Positions 1 to 30,200 of a DNA stretch of 64,000 nucleotides are shown here, in pieces. The number at the start of each line of letters is the position of its first letter. The first letter of the stretch is position 1. The position numbers and the translations under genes were made by a program. This DNA comes from a virus (Duplodnaviria > Heunggongvirae > Uroviricota > Caudoviricetes). A model generated the notes under the pieces. The model worked only from the letters and a program-made list of their open reading frames with translations. It was not told the origin of the DNA and did no database searches. The stretch is taken from the IMG/VR virus record IMGVR_UViG_2684622670_000009, positions 20,476 to 84,475 of that record; one strand, 5' to 3'.

Positions 1-1284
1 TCTTTGATGCTTCCTCTATAGTCGCAGCCCCCTTATCAAGCCGCATACGCCCTGATTTTACAGCTTCTGCCGCCTGAATATTCGCGAAAGCGCGCATATC
101 GAAATAAAGGCTTTTATCTTCGCGGCTGTGCATCTTTTTACCCCAGCGGATACGCTGGACGGTAATACCATAGCGTTCGTACATCAGATCAGCCGTCGAT
201 TTCCCCAAGCCATCGCCATCAATAGCTATGGTTATGTTCGGGAACCGTTCTGGGTTACATTCTGCGAAAATCTTGGCGGCTAACTGCGTTTCTGTAACGT
301 CTGTGTATTCCAGCATACGATAGTTGATTACACGGCGTTTATTTCGCTGGCCGGACACCATCATGATATTAATAACGGACTTATCTCGTCCTGTACCACC
401 AGCAACGTCAACACATGCAACCCAGCCCCATCCTTTGGCAATCTTGACCTTTCGCCGCGTCGCCCGCTCAACCTCATCACGACCAAGAAGAAAACCATCT
501 TGAGATTTGGGAAATTCCCCACGTACTTTGATCATGTACATGGGGTTATCACGACCGCCATACTCCGCAAGTTTTGCTCGTATAAATTTTGCATCTACAA
601 GCGGAGATTCTTCACTATTCAGTACTATCGCAGTAAACAATCCATCAGGATTTCCCGGGCGAATAGCTAGTCTGTGGTGTGAATCGTAGAAATAGCCTGA
701 AGGTCGCGTAGGCTGGGAAAGAAGCAGAATACGGTTATCCTTACCGGTCAGCGCACCTGTTATCACACTGAATGCTTTATCACTCACACCCGACGCTTCG
801 TCGATGATATACAAGAGATGATCGGCGTGTTCACCAGCCAACGCCTCCTCATTTCCGGGGCGACAGGACTTTATCAATATTGTCCAAACACCCTTGCCAG
901 TCACCTCAAAAAAAGACGTTTCTGTAAGAATGAAATACTTCGACAACCACGGGAATCTGCTAACAGCAGTAGCCCAATTGTTCTTTATGTATTTGAAAAT
1001 ACCATCAAGGACTTGCTGTCTTTTGTTAGCGACCAGAATGACGCGAGCGCCGGGGAAAAACATGATGAAGAGTATTGCAATGATACTCGTCATATCCGAT
1101 TTACCAGTACCATGGCCGGAGGTCACACTTGTCCAACTGCCGTCCTGCTGCGTGGACTCAATGATCTCATCCTGCTGCCAGGTTGGTGTCTTCCCAAACA
1201 ACACATCAGCGGCCGCAATCCAGTCATAACGATATAGCGCCACCAGCTCGCGCCAACGTGGGTCCGTTACGCAACTTCTGGCCA
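1..1284 (-). CDS. pacB: Terminase large subunit (PacB-like); C-terminal part lies beyond the window edge
   Basis: ATG at 1284 directly after pacA stop; translation [22 protein letters not shown]...; Walker A SGHGTGKS and Walker B-like LYIIDEASG read from the sequence. Confidence 0.85.
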
Positions 1285-2478
1285 TTAATCATCATCCCCG
1301 TACAGTTTGCGGGTAACTTCTTCGTCTTCCTCCTCGTCTTCGTCCAGATCCTGTTCAAGCCATGCTTCGTTTGATATGCCTTCCGCATCGACATCACCAT
1401 AACCACCTGTATCGACGATATCGGCAATTTCTTCTCTACGATGCTCAATCCACAATGCGGCATCAGCGCGGCGACTGGCGGCCCGTTCTCGCGCGATTTT
1501 ATCCAGATCTTCAAGTGATGGAGCGCCAGATGCTGTTTGGTTTTCCTCATCATCGGTATTGGTCTTAGGAGCACGCAGATCGGCTTTGATTTGCTCCAGC
1601 ATCAGGGGCGGCACTTTTCCTCCATGCGCCTCGATGAATTCAGCCGCTTCCAGCACTGACCAGTTATTTTCACGCTTTCGTTCGTATGCCAGCTTAACAA
1701 TGCCAGCTTGCCCCATAGATAAAGCGTGCTTTTCCGCCTCCCGGCTTTCTTTTCGATAGTTATTCCGGATGCTGTAAATGGTGTTGATCAGGCTGCTTAT
1801 CTGCGCGGAACAGCTGTTTAGCATGCTCGCGATACGGTATTCAGGCGGAGTACCTTCATCATCGTCTTTTTGCTGATCGCGCATTTCCTGCACCAGGCGA
1901 ATACACGTATCCCTGGCGTTCTCCAGCATAAGGAGATGAGAAAGAGACTTTTCCAGAAGGGTGGTCTCCAGAACATCAGCCCCGGACCGACGCAACATAG
2001 CGCGCGCAGCCTTCCGCGCTTCAACGTTATCTATCAGGTAATCGCCAGCTTCGAATTCAAAGCGCTCACCATCATCATCCAGGGTGTCGCGTTCCAGGCG
2101 ATCACGTAAGGTCCGGTGGGCGCGGGTGATCACGTCATGATCATCTGAACGATCTTTTATGCGCTTATTTTGGCGCTTCGCGTTCTCGACTGCGGCACTG
2201 ACAACAGCATTAACCCTTTGTTTTCTCACCATTTCAGCAGCAATATGATCACCTGTACGTTGATCATTAGCGTGATCAATGATCATGTTTTTTAGTGGCT
2301 TCCTGACAGGCTTATTTGGCTTACGGCTGTCCGCTGTTCCGGTGTCTTCTTTGAATGCACGGAGATAACGACGTGCGGTGTTTGGGTTGAGATTAAACTC
2401 GGCGGCATATTGTGCGATGGTGTAACCACCATCTCGCGCCAGGCGAGCAAAATTCTTCTTGTGATCGTCCCAGGTCAC
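1285..2478 (-). CDS. pacA: Terminase small subunit (PacA-like)
   Basis: 397-aa ORF, GTG start preceded by AAGGAAG; lies immediately upstream of pacB; encloses the GATC-hexamer cluster expected of a P1 pac site. Confidence 0.75.
2100..2285. promoter_or_regulatory. pac: pac packaging site: two clusters of Dam-site hexamers (TGATCA / GATCAC)
   Basis: Hexamers at 2100, 2128, 2139 (plus GATC at 2152) and at 2246, 2261, 2273, 2280, about 100 bp apart, inside pacA. Confidence 0.5.
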
Positions 2479-25111: not shown

Positions 25112-25545
25112 TACAGATAATCTTCCACACGAAGACCTAAACGACGGCCTACTTCTTCCAGTACTTTGTGTTCTGCTGGCTCGATTTCACCGTCCGCTTC
25201 TGCAATCGTCAGCATGTTAACGAATACTTCTTCCGCTTCTTTTGGGTCGTTTTTGATATCTTCAATTTCGCGAAGGATATTCATGCGACCAACACGGAAG
25301 CCAGCTTCCAGTTGCTCGGTAAAGCGGGTAATTGTTGCGGTAATTTCGTTACCAAAATGACTAAGACGCGGATTAGAGCGGATAAGCTGATCAAGTTTCG
25401 CTGTTTCTTCTTTTTTGATTTCACCATCAGCGGCAGACACCAACAAACAGCCACCGATAATGGCCTCCATCAGATCGCGATTCTCAACTTTTTTCAGCTC
25501 TACTTTTGCAGAAGCGACTTTCTTGCCGAACAATTTACCGAACAT
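25111..25545 (-). CDS. tciA: TerB-like tellurite-resistance family protein (tciA-like)
   Basis: 144 aa with duplicated ADGEI...EE motifs characteristic of TerB. Confidence 0.7.
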   Translation of the reverse strand: MFGKLFGKKVASAKVELKKVENRDLMEAIIGGCLLVSAADGEIKKEETAKLDQLIRSNPRLSHFGNEITATITRFTEQLEAGFRVGRMNILREIEDIKNDPKEAEEVFVNMLTIAEADGEIEPAEHKVLEEVGRRLGLRVEDYL

Positions 25546-25807
25546 TGGTTATCCCTCAATAAAAGTGACATATTTATTAGATTGCGGTGCCGGGTGCCTC
25601 CCGGTGACGTTAACCAGTTAACAATTAACGCCGGAATGTTTAATCATCAAGGAGGATTGTTTTAACTGTTCCGCGTGCGCTTAGCCGAATTCACCGCAAT
25701 GGTAAGAGCACTTGGCTGGCTGGGCGGCGATGACGCCTGTACGCATTTGGTGATCCGGTTCTGCTTCCGGCATTCGCTTAATTAGCCAAATACTCTTAAC
25801 GTTGCGC

Positions 25808-25894
25808 TGGTGGAGAGTAATGGAATCGAACCATCATCGCTTGCGCAATGGGACGGTTTTCAAGACCGCTTGAGCGCCATACTCCCTACTCTCC
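25808..25894 (-). tRNA. Class II tRNA-Ser-like gene (anticodon UGA), non-canonical D-arm
   Basis: 87 nt; perfect 7-bp acceptor GGAGAGT/ACTCTCC, anticodon loop CTTGAAA, long variable arm, T-arm GATGG-TTCGATT-CCATT, encoded CCA; positions 8 and 14 atypical. Confidence 0.5.
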
Positions 25895-26047
25895 AATGAT
25901 TGTGGTGGTCGGTGCTGATCTCCGACTGCGCCTCTTTTTTTCATAGCCCATAAGGCCGGTCAGTGCGCTTGATGACTGAGGCATCGATATTTACTACGCC
26001 GCCTCGTTGCCATAGGGCGGACTTGCGCGCCAGCAACGCGCATTCAC

Positions 26048-26134
26048 CACAACGGAAAGAGCATTCACGTCTCGCATCGCGGGAAAAAGCCCACGGTAGA
26101 GAGTCGAACTCTACAAATGCTCTTACCTGTTGTG
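26048..26134 (-). repeat. tRNA-like structured repeat R1 (T-arm-like hairpin flanked by about 19-bp inverted repeats)
   Basis: cacaacggaaagagcatt ... aatgctcttacctgttgtg; internal TAGAG-TTCGACT-CTCTA hairpin; followed by shared motif ggtgctgatctccg. Confidence 0.35.
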
Positions 26135-26262
26135 TTGTGATGACCGGTGCTGATCTCCGGCTTGCGGTTATTTCAGACTCTCACGGGCGTTTAATTGCCC
26201 CGCCGGACAGCTCTTTTCCGCAATAGCTGCAATGTCTTTCGCGCATCAGCCTGCGCATTCAT

Positions 26263-26349
26263 CACAACGGTAAGGGTACTTCGGAGGGATTCGAACCCTC
26301 TGCCAAGCTCGGCGATCTCCGACGTCGCAAAATACCCTTACCTGTTGTG
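26263..26349 (-). repeat. tRNA-like structured repeat R2 (paralog of R1)
   Basis: cacaacggtaagggta ... tacccttacctgttgtg; internal GAGGG-TTCGAAT-CCCTC hairpin; abuts the interrupted tRNA. Confidence 0.35.
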
Positions 26350-26350
26350 C

Positions 26351-26483
26351 TGGTGCCGGTTAACGGATTCGAACCGCTGACCTCTGGCCTAACATCGAAT
26401 CGTTGTCATTTGACCAGCAAGGCTGTCTACCGAAGTAGAAACGATGCTTTGGCTCTCGTGCTCTCCCACTGAGCTAAACCGGC
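26351..26483 (-). tRNA. Interrupted tRNA-Thr-like gene (about 59-nt insertion between D-arm and variable loop; intron or pseudogene)
   Basis: 5' part GCCGGTTTAGCTCAGTGGGAGAGCA and 3' part AGGTCAGCGGTTCGAATCCGTTAACCGGCACCA form acceptor, D- and T-arms, but 76 nt lie where a 17-nt anticodon arm belongs. Confidence 0.4.
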
Positions 26484-26485
26484 AT

Positions 26486-26561
26486 TGGCGATGGTGGGTG
26501 GATTCGAACCACCGACCAGTTAGTTAACAGCCAACTGCTCTAACCGCTGAGCTACACCATC
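26486..26561 (-). tRNA. trnA: tRNA-Asn (anticodon GUU)
   Basis: 76-nt cloverleaf GATGGTGTAGCTCAGCGGTTAGAGCAGTTGGCTGTTAACTAAC...GGTGGTTCGAATCCACC CACCATC G CCA. Confidence 0.85.
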
Positions 26562-27231
26562 ACTTGCCGGGTACGTCTCCGGCGAGGGCTTCCACCTCCG
26601 TATGCTTTTCGGCGCACCGCGCCCTGGCTGCAATTCGGTAACAGGGGATGCATAACCCTGGCTTCCAGCGTGATTAGCGCTTTCAGCATGACGGGATATA
26701 CCCGTAAATTCGTGGAACTGTACCCAAAGTGCTGTTAAGCACCGCTGTTACGCTGAAAAGAAGACGCAACAGGAAAGGACGCTGACCAACAGATGGCCCC
26801 TTCTCGTTCATCTGGTTAATCACACCAGCGCCCTTACCTGTTGTGCCTCCCCGTTCCCTAATACACAGACGGGGACACTCTGCGGTCGATTTTTTGACGG
26901 GGGACGACTCATACCCCGTGGCGTCTGGCTTCTTAGGCCGCAGCCATCATCAGATCATCGTTTGCATTTACTTTAATGGTCAGTTTCTAAACCGCCGCAA
27001 AGTCGCTAACCATGACGAAAACCCTGAAAAAACGCCCACCCGAAGATGGGCAAACAGGATGTAAGCTCGTTACGCATTTCGGTATTGCCACTTAGGCGTA
27101 TGGTCAACCTGGCAACTCGGCGTCATGAGGGGGAAGGAGTCACTACCCCGCCATACTTGCCGCCGCGCCTGTCGCGGCTAACAGCTAAATCGCTCTATAA
27201 ATCACGATTCATTGAAACCATATTACACTAA

Positions 27232-27248
27232 TAAATTTATTAGAGCAA
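27232..27248 (-). promoter_or_regulatory. C1 operator (17/17 match)
   Basis: Reverse complement of aaatttattagagcaat equals ATTGCTCTAATAAATTT; overlaps dmt stop, within palindromic ctaataaatttattag. Confidence 0.55.
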
Positions 27249-30200
27249 TATAGCAATAACGTCATGAGCTACACCACGAGTGTTCCCCTTACAAGACACA
27301 GAACGTCTGGCAAAAAGAGGTTCCACTCTGAAGCCACTGTCTTGGTAAAGCTCCCTGATGTTTGGCGCACCACTATTAGTAATGAGGATCTTTGCACCTC
27401 GGCGATGAGCATCCATTAGCAGAGATACCAGGCGTTTTTGCTCTTCAAACTTAAAGTCATGACCGGAATAGTTTGTGAACCCCTCTGTATTGGGGAGCGG
27501 TTCATACGGAGGATCGCAAAAGATGACATCTCCTTCTCCGGCAGCTTCAATCACCGCTGAAAAATCACCACATACAAACTCAGAACGCCCTTCAGCACCG
27601 AGGAAGGCTTCCATCTCCTGTAATGGGAAATACGGAGTTTTATACTTCCCATAACCAACATTAAACTCACCGGCCTGGTTGTAACGCGTCAATCCGTTAA
27701 AACAATGTCGGTTCAGGAACAAAAACGCTGCTGCACGATGTAAATCATCATAGGCTTGTTTGTTAAACGCATTCCGTACTGCCAGGTATCCTTCCTGTGT
27801 GTTGTAGTCCTGGAAAAACCGATGCGCCAGAGTGATAAGTGAATGTCCCTCACGTTGCAGAGTCCTGTAAAAGTTAATCAGGTCAGCATTCACATCATTT
27901 AGCAGATTTTCTTGATATCCGGCATTTATGAAGACAGCTCCGCCACCAACGAAAGGCTCGATCAGGCGCTTTCCGTCAGGTAAATGCCTAAAGATTTGTT
28001 CAAGAACACCAAATTTTCCGCCGACCCATTTAAATATGGGACGGTCAAATTCTGCCGTTAGCTTAACTCTCCGTTCTGTTGCTTCATGATTTTTTGCCTG
28101 CTGATATGCAGCCTTAATAATCCGCTCACCAATCCATCGCATTACTGGTATCGCCATGCTATTGCCGATCGCTTTGTAACGCGGTCCGTCAGCTGCAAGC
28201 ATCGCGGCCTCTTCTTCGCTTAAATCTGGATAGTGATTGCGAAGGTATGCCAGTTCATCTGAAGTAACTTTTTTACGCTTTTCCGTCGGGATCAACGTAT
28301 GCCCATCAGGAAAACCTTGCAGTCTTTCACATTCGACAGGGGTAAGACGGCGGACAGCTACTGCTGCGTTTCCTACGTCATAGCAAACGGCTGTTGTATT
28401 TTTGGCCATTAAAGATGGTGAAGTATTCTTAGTTGCAGCATGTTGTGTACCGCTCATACGCTCAGGAAAAGCCAATGTAACAAGATGCTCATGGCTTTCT
28501 TGCTCACGTGCCCGCAATGTACCATGCCCTTCTGACCAAAAACCTGCTCCTGTGCTGCTAAAAACTGCAAGGTCAGTGGCATCTTTAAAGTCTCTCGCCT
28601 TTACTGTCGATGCGGTTTCATCGCCAATATATTCCCCAAATGCCGCCATCCTGAAAGCGTTTACGGCTTTCGTCGATTTCATACCGGGGGTAATGTCAGC
28701 GTGTAGGCATGGATTTAGGCTTTCGCCACTGATTGCAGCGCCATTTGCAATAATGGCGGAAGCGATTTCCTTCTTTTTTCGGCTCGGCGCAATATTCCGG
28801 CGCACGCCTTCGAACTCAAAAAGTACCGTTGCGGGATCGAGGTCTGTTCGAGCACTTGCGACAACAAACACGCGTCGGCGTCGTTGTGCCACTCCGAAGT
28901 ATTGGGCATCAAGGATTCTCCAGGCCACCTTTCGCTGCGGTCCATAAATACAACCACACTGCGGCCACTTTGGAGCATGGCAACCGGTTTTGCCATCCCA
29001 CCGCCAGAACGCGTTACTTTTTCCTGATTCAGGTCGATCACCTGGTTCAAATGGCGCATCTTCTCCAGCCAATCCGGCAAGGAAACATCCGAAGGCGTTA
29101 TCTGCCGATGACAAGACTCCTGGGACATTTTCCCAGACGATAACGGCTGGTTTGAGAAATGACTCAGCCCGTTTGTCGTCAATTGCATTTGCAAGCTCCA
29201 CATACTTTAAAGTTAGCGCGCCACGCTCATCATCAAGCCCACCACGTAATCCCGCGATACTGAATGCCTGACAGTTATGGACCACCGCACCATTGAGGAT
29301 ATAGGAATGATCACCTTCGACTTCTATGTTGTATACAGTATCTAGGCCTACCGATTTAAACTCTTTGACTGTTCGTAAAAGCATTCCATGAGCCAATCTT
29401 GATTTACGTGACAATTTCTGCGGGCAGATTGTTACCTGATAATAATTCCGTTGATTTACCACGCGATCCTCGATCACTTTTTTGGGCTCAACTTCAATAA
29501 AGCTGACCGAAGAAACATAACCACAAGTCTGTGACACCCCCGCAACGCCCCAAGCAAGCGCAGGACTAACACTATTAATTCTAAATCCCGCTTTACCACT
29601 TGGTGTCCCATCAGTATCAAGATAGCCTTGTAAAAACACATGACGCAATGGATGCGACATCACCCATGCAGGGATACGCTTAGCATGGCTTAACTCGCCA
29701 AAATGTTCATTAAGCCAATTGGCATAACACGTATCATTCAAGGTTACTTTGATGCTCCCTCGGATTTCTCTTGCCACGGAAAATATGTTTTCTGGTATGC
29801 GACAATGAAACTTTCTCAATTTCTGGCAATTTATGCCAAAAACAACCGCCTTCTTAGATTTACCTCTCCATCTCCTAATATATCCATCGCCAACATAAGC
29901 GCCCGCAAGATACATAGCCTGTTCTTCAGACAAGAACCGAGAACAAATATCTGGAGATGCAATATTGAAATTAGTTAGAGCGCACCATTGATATCCTGGC
30001 ATATCACATGCTGCTCGCCATTCCGGTTCAGACAACAACTCTCTCTTAAAATATGTGCCATTTTTCCGGGTGTTTTGGGCTTTCCACCGAACAGCCAGGA
30101 AGGGATGGTCATTGGTTGTTCTTATACCTAAAGGCTGCCCAACGGCATTAAGTAACCCCGTATTAGCTATTTTTGAACCAACTCTTTTTACTTGTTGTAA

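What the first reader, a model, noticed from the sequence alone, without database searches (positions are those of the whole stretch)
25808..26561. tRNA cluster with an interrupted tRNA-Thr-like gene, a non-canonical tRNA-Ser(UGA)-like gene and two tRNA-like inverted-repeat elements
Next to a canonical tRNA-Asn(GUU), a gene with perfect acceptor, D- and T-arms has 76 nt where a 17-nt anticodon arm should be (26351-26483). Two 87-bp elements, R1 and R2, each have a T-arm-like hairpin flanked by about 19-bp inverted repeats (cacaacgg...cctgttgtg), and a third, internally deleted copy of the terminal motif lies at 26826-26845. Elements are separated by a shared motif ggtgctgatctccg. This could be tRNA introns or pseudogenes, tRNA-derived MITE-like repeats, or processing signals.
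Basis: seen in the sequence. Interest (0 to 1): 0.6.

Follow-up and report, generated by a model that had tools for sequence, protein, structure and literature searches.

The report
Phage array of scaffolded small RNAs
This stretch of a P1-like phage-plasmid is a packed, co-oriented array of tRNAs and structured small RNAs, including a conserved tRNA body that carries a 75-base folded module in place of its anticodon arm, so it cannot decode but looks functional.

Summary
All features lie on the minus strand, in the C1-controlled ban operon of a P1-like phage-plasmid.

- **Interrupted tRNA-Thr.** It is neither an intron-bearing tRNA nor a pseudogene. The P1 tRNA-Thr body carries a 75-nt module exactly where the 17-nt anticodon arm should be. 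The same module occurs in SSU5-like phage-plasmids and in an N4-like phage. There the tRNA stems show compensatory changes, and the module is about four times better conserved than the body. RefSeq labels it tRNA-OTHER.
- **R1 and R2.** They belong to a family of long hairpins with conserved stems (ACAAC.../...GUUGU) and interchangeable interiors. The structure is selected on the transcribed strand. The "third deleted copy" is a complete hairpin (R0), and a fourth (R3) follows tRNA-Ser.
- **Shared 14-mer.** It is the terminal hairpin of two units built like the neighbouring STnc100 prophage sRNA.
- **tRNA-Ser(UGA).** It is a covariation-supported class II tRNA, already annotated in phage D6.

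Best reading: a polycistronic array of tRNAs plus scaffolded non-coding RNAs, with the long stems acting as processing or insulating elements. Their functions are inferred, not shown.

Noticed just upstream: an unannotated, widespread phage RNA that is antisense to host tmRNA and carries its own tag-like reading frame.

The parts
26486..26561 (-). Canonical tRNA-Asn(GUU) with encoded CCA
   Evidence: ARAGORN; Rfam tRNA 71.7 bits; orthologue of P1 trnA
26351..26483 (-). tRNA-bodied non-decoding RNA: the P1 tRNA-Thr acceptor, D and T arms plus ACCA, with the anticodon arm replaced
   Evidence: Reading of the sequence and comparison with P1/P7/D6 trnT. Not called by ARAGORN or by Rfam at threshold. 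The orthologue in pSTM_Phi scores 46.7 bits on Rfam tRNA with the module treated as an insertion. RefSeq annotates the 133-nt orthologue as tRNA-OTHER. Compensatory pairs in the acceptor and T stems.
26384..26458 (-). 75-nt module. Predicted junction of a closing stem (GCAUCG/CGAUGU) and three small hairpins (UCUAC-UUCG-GUAGA, CAGC-NNN-GCUG, GUC-AAAU-GAC).
   Evidence: Folds. Its first 37 nt are invariant in P1-like, SSU5-like and N4-like copies. No Rfam family matches. Found in 11 plasmids and 1 phage record and in 6 of 5426 E. coli genomes.
26263..26349 (-). Hairpin R1: about 20-bp stem (CACAACAGGUAAGGGUA / UACCCUUACCGUUGUG) enclosing a small hairpin and a T-arm-like hairpin (GAGGGUUCGAAUCCCUC)
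   Evidence: Fold at -44 kcal/mol, z = -6.4. Present directly after trnT in P1 and D6; P7 has the same stem with a different interior. 20 pairs on the tRNA strand against 15 on the opposite strand.
26134..26268 (-). Unit U1, built like STnc100: closing helix GUUGUGAUGA / UCAUCACAAC, then GAAU plus a GC hairpin, a variable core, and the terminal hairpin CCGGAGAUCAGCACCGG
   Evidence: A covariance model built from STnc100-type units of other loci matches it end to end (22 bits, E = 6e-5). No Rfam STnc100 match.
26045..26139 (-). Hairpin R2: stem CAACAGGUAAGAGCAUU / AAUGCUCUUUCCGUUG enclosing a T-arm-like hairpin (GUAGAGUUCGACUCUCUAC) and a second hairpin
   Evidence: Fold at -41.1 kcal/mol, z = -4.8; same interior family in other loci
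25899..26053 (-). Unit U2: same ends as U1 (UUGUGGUG ... CACCACAA, GAAU plus GC hairpin, terminal hairpin GUCGGAGAUCAGCACCGAC) with a different, longer core
   Evidence: Closing-helix covariation across 27 distinct unit termini. Not detected by Rfam or by my own model.
26144..26160 (-).
   Evidence: same position and form as the CCGGGAGGCACCCGG hairpin of the STnc100 match
25908..25926 (-). Second copy of the shared motif: the terminal hairpin of U2
25808..25894 (-). Class II tRNA-Ser(UGA)-like gene with a short D loop, a 5-bp variable arm capped by GCAA, and an encoded ACCA
   Evidence: ARAGORN. Annotated in D6 as tRNA-Ser 'AA not called by tRNAscan-SE'. Cloverleaf 99.1% paired over 9 variants, with 4 pairs changed on both sides. 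Rfam gives only tRNA-Sec at 37.7 bits, below its threshold of 47.
25694..25807 (-). Hairpin R3 directly after the tRNA-Ser CCA: stem GCGCAACGUUAAGAGUAUUUGG / CCAAGUGCUCUUACCAUUGCGG with a 70-nt interior
   Evidence: (pair I2). The interior is about 82% identical in rV5-like phages, inside unrelated but still complementary stems.
25581..25700 (-). Unit U3: the core of the STnc100 prophage sRNA family, without the family's terminator
   Evidence: Rfam RF02076, 50.3 bits against a gathering score of 47, model positions 31-147; own model 98.7 bits
26765..26845 (-). The stem holds 6 G-U pairs on this strand.
   Evidence: It is the commonest member in P1-like loci (58 loci). It follows the two pseudoknots of the upstream RNA.
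26846..27024 (-). An unannotated RNA with a leader antisense to host tmRNA (26966-27024), a tag-like ORF ANDDLMMAAA* (26933-26965), and two pseudoknots (26883-26920, 26846-26884).
27220..27251 (-). Context: palindromic C1 operator and ban promoter that heads the operon
   Evidence: Inverted repeat I1; homologous to the annotated Oban/Pban of P1 and P7

Best explanation
The region is one co-oriented, probably polycistronic RNA island in the ban operon of a P1-like phage-plasmid. On the minus strand, 5' to 3', it reads: tRNA-Asn, a Thr-bodied tRNA-like RNA, R1, U1, R2, U2, tRNA-Ser(UGA), R3, U3 (STnc100), then terB/tciA.

Three kinds of scaffold present variable RNA modules.

(a) A tRNA body. 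The anticodon arm of the P1 tRNA-Thr is replaced by a conserved 75-nt junction module. I infer that RNase P and the 3' trimming and CCA machinery cut this RNA out as a stable small RNA. It cannot decode. The module would be the working part, binding a protein or RNA that is still unknown.

(b) Long ACAAC.../...GUUGU stems (R0-R3) that enclose interchangeable small structured RNAs.

(c) STnc100-type units (U1-U3).

The outer 6 bp of each R stem and the U closing helices use the same bases. I infer that the 17-23-bp R stems are cut by a double-strand-specific nuclease, with RNase III the obvious candidate. That cut would separate tRNAs, R interiors and U units. It would also leave each U unit with its own two ends paired.

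Shown: the anatomy, the conservation, the strand asymmetry and the covariation. Inferred: co-transcription, the processing enzymes and every function.
For: - **Operon context.** All elements lie on the strand of tRNA-Asn, terB, trnI and ban, downstream of the C1 operator.
- **Thr-like RNA: anatomy.** The body matches P1 trnT, and the arm is replaced at tRNA positions 27-43.
- **Thr-like RNA: distribution.** The module-bearing gene occurs in three phage backbones. In Gamaleyavirus relatives the same site holds a normal tRNA with a homologous body.
- **Thr-like RNA: selection.** There are 4 compensatory pairs in the acceptor and T stems. The module shows 6.7% differences against 25% for the body, p = 0.003.
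- **Thr-like RNA: detection by others.** The Rfam tRNA model accepts the pSTM_Phi copy at 46.7 bits, and RefSeq calls it tRNA-OTHER.
- **R hairpins.** Folding z-scores are -6.4 and -4.8. They fold better on the tRNA strand in 51 of 55 unique sequences (mean -6.1 kcal/mol) and in 14 of 16 interior families (p = 0.002). At least 9 unrelated interiors sit in one stem type. Conversely, the R3 interior is conserved in foreign stems.
- **U units.** There are 37 unique units in 8 or more core families with common ends. The closing helix is 91% paired, with UA/CG and GC/AU exchanges. U3 passes the Rfam STnc100 threshold. U1 is found end to end by a model built from other loci.
- **Whole array.** It folds with z = -5.4.
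- **tRNA-Ser.** The cloverleaf is 99% paired with 4 compensatory pairs.
Against: - No expression, processing or binding data were available.
- The structure inside the module has no covariation support, because the module hardly varies.
- All compensatory changes in the tRNA body come from one lineage, Jgk1. They could reflect recombination between two tRNA genes rather than stepwise selection.
- U2 is not found by either covariance model.
- The minimum-energy fold prefers complete R hairpins over the U closing helices. The paired-ends idea therefore needs cleavage first.
- A terminator-like hairpin (27033-27056) lies between the ban promoter and the island. Transcription from that promoter would need read-through or a second promoter.
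- No target was found for the module. Complementarity inside the 64-kb window is at chance level, and pairing with E. coli tmRNA is not significant (z = -2.0).
Confidence: 0.6

Rival explanations
1. The Thr-like gene is a tRNA-Thr with an intron. The insert is spliced out to give a normal decoding tRNA.
For: The insert lies in the anticodon region of an otherwise perfect tRNA. The Rfam tRNA model tolerates it as an insertion in pSTM_Phi.
Against: No anticodon stem or loop remains on either side: the whole 17-nt arm is replaced. At 75 nt it is far too short for a group I intron, and no intron or ribozyme family matches even at E <= 10. From general knowledge, enterobacteria have no protein-dependent tRNA splicing.
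Confidence: 0.03
2. The Thr-like gene is a dead tRNA, destroyed by insertion of a small mobile or recombined DNA segment that spreads between tRNA genes.
For: It is rare: 11 of 72,556 plasmids, 6 of 5426 E. coli genomes, and none of roughly 100 P1-like loci collected independently of the module. The same module sits in two different tRNA bodies, Thr-type and Gamaleyavirus Ile-type, as a mobile insert might.
Against: The replacement has the same precise structural boundaries in every copy. The acceptor and T stems stay fully paired in the mosaic Jgk1 copy. The module is nearly invariant across three unrelated phage groups. The D arm, T arm and CCA are intact in all copies.
Confidence: 0.1
3. 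R1 and R2 are MITE-like or tRNA-derived mobile DNA repeats, or attC-like recombination sites, acting at the DNA level.
For: They have terminal inverted repeats, interiors that are swapped between genomes while the ends stay the same, and T-arm-like sequence inside R1 and R2.
Against: The structure is asymmetric between strands. G-U pairs make the stems longer and more stable on the transcribed strand in 14 of 16 families. There are no copies outside the island in 64 kb. The orientation is always the same. CACAAC/GTTGTG departs from the attC RYYYAAC/GTTRRRY consensus at one symmetric position (direct reading).
Confidence: 0.08
4. The 3' arms of the R hairpins, together with the GC hairpin that follows, are nut-like or boxA-like signals. 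They would load Nus factors and protect about 2 kb of untranslated, highly structured RNA from Rho termination, so that terB, trnI and ban are expressed. This is compatible with the best explanation.
For: Many 3' arms read UGCUCUUAC or UGCUCUUUC. From my own knowledge, the lambda nutR boxA is CGCUCUUAC and the rrn boxA is UGCUCUUUAACAA. A 5-bp GC hairpin follows 13 nt later. The island is long and untranslated, and it precedes protein genes.
Against: Several family members lack the GCUCUU core: R1 has ACCCUUA, R0 has GUCCUUU, and others have GCCUCAA. The motif is base-paired within the stem. The resemblance is recalled from memory, not tested.
Confidence: 0.15

Closest known systems
P1 trnT, tRNA-Thr(UGU) of phages P1, P7 and D6
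   Same: Same position after tRNA-Asn. Near-identical acceptor stem, D arm, T arm and ACCA.
   Different: The 17-nt anticodon arm is replaced by a 75-nt module, so there is no anticodon and the RNA cannot decode.
Engineered tRNA scaffolds for recombinant RNA, in which the anticodon arm is swapped for a cargo RNA (my own knowledge)
   Same: Identical design principle: cargo placed at the anticodon arm of an intact tRNA body, which gives processing and stability.
   Different: This one is natural, phage-encoded and evolutionarily conserved. Whether it is stable was not tested.
YrlA / bacterial Y RNA-like tRNA mimics (Rfam RF02553)
   Same: A non-decoding RNA with tRNA-like D and T arms plus an effector domain.
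   Different: YrlA is circularly permuted, with a Ro-binding stem. Here the acceptor end is open and carries CCA. The Rfam YrlA match is sub-threshold and merely bridges two adjacent tRNAs (21-26 bits against 69).
STnc100 / PasD prophage sRNAs (Rfam RF02076; bioRxiv 10.64898/2026.05.13.724894)
   Same: U3 passes the family threshold. U1 and U2 share the closing helix, the GAAU plus GC hairpin, and the terminal CCGGAG..CACCGG hairpin. As in lambdoid prophages, a TerB gene is a neighbour.
   Different: No promoter or terminator of their own. They are arranged in tandem inside a tRNA operon. The cores of U1 and U2 are unrelated and do not match the Rfam model.
Processing stems of rRNA operons and the phage T4 tRNA cluster, with its small stable RNAs and RNase III step (my own knowledge)
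   Same: Long stems formed by flanking complementary sequences enclose stable RNAs within a polycistronic tRNA/rRNA transcript.
   Different: Here the stem sequence itself is conserved while the interior is interchangeable. Cleavage was not tested.
tmRNA (for the RNA just upstream of the finding)
   Same: A tag-like reading frame (ANDD...AA*) with no start codon, an A-rich linker with U at -5 and A at -4 before a GCA codon, and two H-type pseudoknots after the frame.
   Different: No tRNA-like domain. Sub-threshold on every tmRNA model. Its leader is antisense to the host tmRNA.

Membership tests
Canonical tRNA (Rfam RF00005): the Thr-like gene | 7-bp acceptor stem, discriminator base and CCA end | tested here: met
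   GCCGGUU/AACCGGC followed by A-CCA. Pairing is kept through changes on both sides in Jgk1.
Canonical tRNA (Rfam RF00005): the Thr-like gene | D arm and T arm with conserved loops (GG in the D loop, GUUCGAAUC in the T arm) | tested here: met
   GCUC-AGUGGGA-GAGC and AGCGG-UUCGAAU-CCGUU
Canonical tRNA (Rfam RF00005): the Thr-like gene | 5-bp anticodon stem with a 7-nt loop containing U33 and an anticodon | tested here: not met
   A 75-nt module occupies tRNA positions 27-43, and none of its hairpins has a 7-nt loop
Canonical tRNA (Rfam RF00005): the Thr-like gene | Detected by tRNA finders or a covariance model at threshold | tested here: inconclusive
   The window copy is not called by ARAGORN and gets only a 13.5-bit partial match on Rfam. 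The pSTM_Phi copy scores 46.7 bits against a threshold of 29. RefSeq labels it tRNA-OTHER.
Intron-containing tRNA (group I intron in the anticodon loop) | An intact anticodon stem-loop, interrupted, plus a group I catalytic core | tested here: not met
   No residual stem-loop. Only 75 nt long. No Intron_gpI or ribozyme match at E <= 10.
Class II tRNA-Ser: 25808-25894 | Cloverleaf with a long variable arm, UGA anticodon in a 7-nt loop, and a CCA end | tested here: met
   ARAGORN. 26 pairs are 99.1% paired across 9 variants, and 4 pairs changed on both sides.
Class II tRNA-Ser: 25808-25894 | Scores above threshold on the general tRNA model; standard D loop | tested here: not met
   No RF00005 match. 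The best match is tRNA-Sec at 37.7 bits, below its threshold of 47. The D loop has only 5-6 nt. The D6 annotators noted that tRNAscan-SE gives no isotype.
Class II tRNA-Ser: 25808-25894 | Charged by seryl-tRNA synthetase and used in decoding | not testable with these tools
   Needs aminoacylation assays
STnc100 sRNA (Rfam RF02076): U3, U1, U2 | Match to the family model at its gathering score | tested here: inconclusive
   U3 scores 50.3 against 47, on the core only (model positions 31-147). U1 and U2 give no match at E <= 10. U1 scores 22 bits, E = 6e-5, on a model built from STnc100-type units of other loci; U2 does not.
STnc100 sRNA (Rfam RF02076): U3, U1, U2 | Closing helix, 5' GC hairpin and 3' CCGG..CCGG hairpin | tested here: met
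   Present in U1, U2 and U3. The helix is 91% paired with covariation at two positions over 27 termini.
STnc100 sRNA (Rfam RF02076): U3, U1, U2 | Independent gene with its own Rho-independent terminator (model positions 148-206) | tested here: not met
   Model positions 148-206 are unmatched. No terminator-like site lies within 25575-26350.
MITE / mobile inverted-repeat element: R0-R3 | Dispersed copies at unrelated sites, in either orientation, with strand-neutral conservation | tested here: not met
   Copies occur only in the island. Orientation is uniform, and the tRNA strand folds better in 14 of 16 families.
MITE / mobile inverted-repeat element: R0-R3 | Target-site duplications | not tested
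   Not examined systematically
tmRNA: the upstream RNA at 26846-27024 | tRNA-like domain with an alanine-identity acceptor stem (G3-U70) and CCA | tested here: not met
   No tmRNA called by ARAGORN. No partner strand for the leader on the same strand. tmRNA models score 7-35 bits against thresholds of 47-84.
tmRNA: the upstream RNA at 26846-27024 | Tag reading frame without a start codon, followed by pseudoknots | tested here: met
   Tags of the form ANDD/ANEE...AA*, with synonymous Ala-codon changes. Both stems of the two pseudoknots covary between lineages (direct reading of the sequences printed).

The most novel reading that the evidence does not exclude
The tRNA cluster is the downstream part of a phage toolkit of non-decoding RNAs aimed at the host translation and ribosome-rescue machinery. 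Its first member docks on host tmRNA by roughly 40 bp of antisense pairing and offers its own tag reading frame at the natural distance from a helix. This would re-programme trans-translation rather than simply block it. The anticodon-less, tRNA-bodied RNA and the hairpin and STnc100-like cassettes would be further effectors of the same toolkit, made stable by natural tRNA and stem scaffolds.
Probability: 0.12. Interest if true: 0.9.

Novelty: new variant of a known kind. Interest (0 to 1): 0.66.

Why it matters
- **A textbook phage with unannotated RNA genes.** P1 is a classic phage, yet about 2 kb of its ban operon seems to hold a dense set of structured RNA genes that are unannotated or mis-annotated.
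- **A natural tRNA scaffold.** A conserved RNA that uses a tRNA body purely as a scaffold would be the natural counterpart of a widely used engineering trick. It would also be a new class of phage non-coding RNA.
- **A modular way to express small RNAs.** The hairpin and STnc100-type cassettes suggest that phages express and exchange small RNAs as modules.
- **Better annotation.** "tRNA-OTHER" entries, and ORFs such as P1 plp that run antisense to these RNAs, would be annotated correctly.
- **A testable link to ribosome rescue.** The adjacent tmRNA-antisense RNA with its own tag frame, present in about 290 phage records, would make phage manipulation of ribosome rescue directly testable.

Tried and rejected
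- **Known RNA families for the module.** Rfam searches at E <= 10 on 2.5 kb, 156 nt and 386 nt found nothing for the module, R1, R2, U1 or U2. The YrlA matches are artefacts of two adjacent tRNAs.
- **More distant module homologues.** Exact and gapped pattern scans of the viral, genome and metagenome collections found only the same four sequence types. The remaining hits were chance matches.
- **A peptide encoded in the module.** MTTIRC* loses both its start and stop codons in Jgk1 (reading).
- **An alternative nested tRNA using GCUGGUC as the acceptor strand.** It scores 13.5 bits and is not conserved in Jgk1.
- **A K-turn at the base of the module.** The strand orientation does not fit the consensus (reasoning only).
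- **Module pairing with the phage tag frame.** The pairing is 8 bp in P1-like and Jgk1 copies but only 6 bp in SSU5-like copies, with no compensation.
- **Module targets.** Complementarity within the window is at chance level, and pairing with E. coli tmRNA gives z = -2.0.
- **ORFs on the plus strand under the RNAs.** There are no Pfam hits. The only similarity is to the last 40 residues of P1 Plp, which are themselves antisense to R1 and trnT.
- **A tRNA-like domain or acceptor piece for the upstream tag RNA.** None was found.
- **Literature.** Searches on the P1 ban operon tRNAs, dicF-like, phage tmRNA and the tag peptides found no description. The P1 genome paper is not held in the library.
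Full report
**Where this is.** The window is a P1-like phage-plasmid. Rfam finds the P1 immunity RNA C4 and its targets. The region matches P7, D6 and P1 at 92-96% identity and Escherichia albertii plasmids at 99%. Everything in the finding lies on the minus strand. Comparison with the P1, P7 and D6 annotations places it in the ban operon. That operon runs: C1 operator and ban promoter (27220-27251), the "dicF-like" region, trnA (Asn), trnT (Thr), terB/tciA (25111-25545; Pfam TerB), trnI (24761-24836) and ban.

**Check of the observation.** ARAGORN calls tRNA-Asn(GUU) at 26486-26561 and tRNA-Ser(UGA) at 25808-25894. It does not call the 133-nt gene at 26351-26483. Read directly, that gene has the acceptor stem GCCGGUU/AACCGGC, a D arm, a T arm and ACCA, but no anticodon arm. 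Similarity to P1, P7 and D6 breaks at 26459..26385. Aligned on P1 trnT, 75 nt (26384-26458) stand where 17 nt should be. R1 (26263-26349) and R2 (26045-26139) fold into long hairpins, with z = -6.4 and -4.8 against shuffles. The 14-mer CGGAGATCAGCACC occurs exactly twice.

There are two corrections. The "deleted third copy" is the 5' arm of a complete hairpin, R0, at 26765-26845. A fourth hairpin, R3 (25694-25807), follows tRNA-Ser.

**The Thr-like gene.** The 75-nt module is not confined to P1-like elements.
- It is present in 11 plasmids: 3 P1-like plasmids of E. albertii and 8 SSU5-like phage-plasmids of E. coli and Salmonella.
- It is also in one phage, Jgk1, and in IMG/VR and metagenome contigs of the same types.
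- Jgk1 is an N4-like Gamaleyavirus. Its relatives ST4 and Bp4 carry a normal tRNA with a homologous body at that site.
- Of 110 loci holding the trnT 5' half, 99 carry an anticodon arm with a UGU anticodon and 11 carry the module. All 11 came from module-based searches.

The first 37 nt of the module are invariant. Overall, the window and Jgk1 differ at 5 of 75 module positions against 15 of 59 body positions (Fisher p = 0.003). Two acceptor pairs and two T-stem pairs stay paired through changes on both sides. The Rfam tRNA model accepts the pSTM_Phi copy with the module as an insertion (46.7 bits). RefSeq annotates the 133-nt gene as tRNA-OTHER.

Nothing suggests an intron. No anticodon stem-loop remains, no intron or ribozyme family matches, and the small ORF in the module is not conserved. 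I conclude that this is a functional, non-decoding RNA that uses a tRNA body as a scaffold. The predicted module fold is a junction of a closing stem and three small hairpins. It is unsupported by covariation, because the sequence barely varies. No target was found.

**R hairpins.** A scan of about 140 related loci found 55 unique hairpins of the form ACAAC(N)G..RAG ... CUY..C(N)GUUGU on the tRNA strand.
- 51 of the 55 fold better on that strand than on the complement, by 6.1 kcal/mol on average.
- By interior family the count is 14 of 16, binomial p = 0.002.
- G-U pairs explain the difference. R1 forms 20 pairs on the tRNA strand against 15 on the other, and R0 forms 23 against 17.
- One stem type (ACAACAGGTAAGRG...CYCTTACCGTTGT) carries at least 9 unrelated interiors, and "empty" 46-nt versions also exist.
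- Conversely, the R3 interior is about 82% identical next to the tRNA-Ser of rV5-like lytic phages, enclosed there by different but still complementary stems.

These are therefore RNA-level structures with a conserved frame and exchangeable content, not DNA repeats. They always sit directly after a tRNA CCA end or after a U unit.

**The shared motif and the U units.** Rfam finds the core of the STnc100 prophage sRNA at 25583-25698, at 50.3 bits against a gathering score of 47. The closing helices are GUUGUGAUGA/UCAUCACAAC in U1, UUGUGGUG/CACCACAA in U2 and UUGCGGUG/CACCGCAA in U3.

Across 27 distinct termini the helix is 91% paired, with UA/CG and GC/AU exchanges, and it exceeds all 500 shuffles and all slid controls. 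A covariance model built from STnc100-type units of other loci finds U1 end to end (22 bits, E = 6e-5) but not U2. Rfam finds neither. STnc100 and PasD are Hfq-associated prophage sRNAs that often lie near a TerB gene (bioRxiv 10.64898/2026.05.13.724894).

The outer 6 bp of each R stem use the same bases as the U closing helices. The minimum-energy fold of the array prefers the full R hairpins.

**Mechanism.** This part is inferred. One transcript carries tRNAs, the tRNA-bodied RNA, the R hairpins and the U units. tRNA-type ends would be made by RNase P and 3' trimming. The 17-23-bp R stems are suitable substrates for RNase III. Cutting them would free the R interiors and leave each U unit with a 5' ...GUUGUGRUG and a 3' CAYCACAAC... 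that pair with each other. A non-exclusive alternative is that the UGCUCUUAC-type 3' arms, together with the following hairpin, act as boxA/nut-like anti-termination signals for this long untranslated stretch.

**tRNA-Ser(UGA).** A manual cloverleaf is 99.1% paired over 9 variants, with 4 pairs changed on both sides. The D loop is unusually short, and the general Rfam tRNA model misses it. The D6 record already annotates it with a caveat, and D6-like plasmids are reported to carry it (PMC6799933).

**Noticed upstream.** Between the dicF-like terminator and R0 lies an unannotated RNA at 26846-27024.
- It has a tag-like frame, GCA AAC GAU GAU CUG AUG AUG GCU GCG GCC UAA (ANDDLMMAAA*), with no in-frame canonical start codon.
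- Two H-type pseudoknots follow, and their stems covary between lineages.
- Related sequences occur in 290 phage records from the following groups:
  - P1-like and SSU5-like phage-plasmids;
  - N4-like and T1-like phages;
  - Ackermannviridae;
  - Aeromonas and Vibrio phages.
- Their tags include ANDDVVLMAA**, ANEEMYLAVA* and ANDDLMLAAA**, with synonymous Ala-codon changes.
- No tRNA-like domain is present.
- Its 50-nt leader is the reverse complement, with small deletions, of E. coli tmRNA nt 56-107. That span covers the 3' half of PK1, the A-rich linker, the resume codon and codons 2-6.
- The predicted duplexes are -40 to -50 kcal/mol. They are matched by 0-3 of 300 shuffled leaders.
- The conserved blocks of the leader are the complementary ones. 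The spacing from the duplex to the phage GCA codon copies the natural spacing from PK1 to the resume codon.
- The other island elements show no such complementarity.

I found no description of this RNA in the searchable literature.

**Verdict.** The intron, pseudogene and MITE readings are not supported, and the processing-signal reading is plausible. Parts of the region are already annotated: tRNA-Asn, tRNA-Ser, tRNA-OTHER and STnc100. I found no description of the tRNA-scaffolded module RNA, the hairpin-cassette family, the STnc100-like tandem units or the organisation of the island in the papers I could search. All functions remain inferred.

Noticed in passing
window 26846-27024 (-): leader 26966-27024, tag-like ORF 26933-26965, pseudoknots 26883-26920 and 26846-26884. 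Also L001 (P1) about 2040-2216, L143, L144, L145, L146, L147, L141 and L007.: An unannotated RNA, widespread in phages (290 phage records), built like a tmRNA coding piece but lacking a tRNA-like domain. It has a tag frame (ANDDLMMAAA* and relatives) with no start codon, followed by two covarying pseudoknots. Its leader is antisense to E. coli tmRNA nt 56-107 (duplex -40 to -50 kcal/mol; 0-3 of 300 shuffles as good). It may block or re-programme trans-translation.
   Followed up: partly
window 25581-25700 (-): An Rfam STnc100 prophage sRNA core (50.3 bits) lies immediately upstream of the TerB gene, as in lambdoid prophages. It has no terminator of its own here. Its 5' strand overlaps the 3' arm of hairpin R3.
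   Followed up: partly
L001 (P1) 1252-1629 (+), and window 26195-26380 (+): The last 40 residues of the annotated P1 lipoprotein Plp are encoded antisense to R1 and to the T arm of trnT; the motif DSN(P/R) arises twice from T-arm antisense. In the window the rest of plp is absent, yet R1 is 97% conserved. The plp ORF may therefore be partly or wholly spurious.
   Followed up: partly
window 26144-26161 (-): The hairpin GCCGGAGAUCAGCACCGG nearly matches positions 30-47 of the E. coli RydB sRNA model (GCCGGAGAUAAGCGCCGG; 13.7 bits, E = 3). Related CCGG-loop-CCGG hairpins recur before tRNA-Asn (26566-26583), inside R1 and inside R3. This may be a common protein-binding hairpin.
   Followed up: no
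window 27033-27056 (-): An intrinsic-terminator-like hairpin (GCCCAUCUUCGGGUGGGC followed by U6) ends the 'dicF-like' region between the ban promoter and the RNA island. Expression of the island therefore needs read-through, anti-termination or another promoter. In T1-like and Vibrio phages the homologous RNA has its own TTGACA-17-TAGATT promoter.
   Followed up: no
L005 (pSTM_Phi) about 2310-2395, and L007 (Jgk1) about 1685-1790 and 2100-2190: Further tRNA-like elements (acceptor-like stem plus a GGUUCGAUUCC T arm, with no proper D or anticodon arms) that ARAGORN does not call. This suggests that more scaffolded or degenerate tRNA-like RNAs exist in these islands.
   Followed up: no
window 24761-24836 (-): ARAGORN calls this gene tRNA-Met(CAU). 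It is the orthologue of P1 trnI, annotated in P1 as tRNA-Ile2 with a CAT anticodon and similar to E. coli ileX.
   Followed up: no
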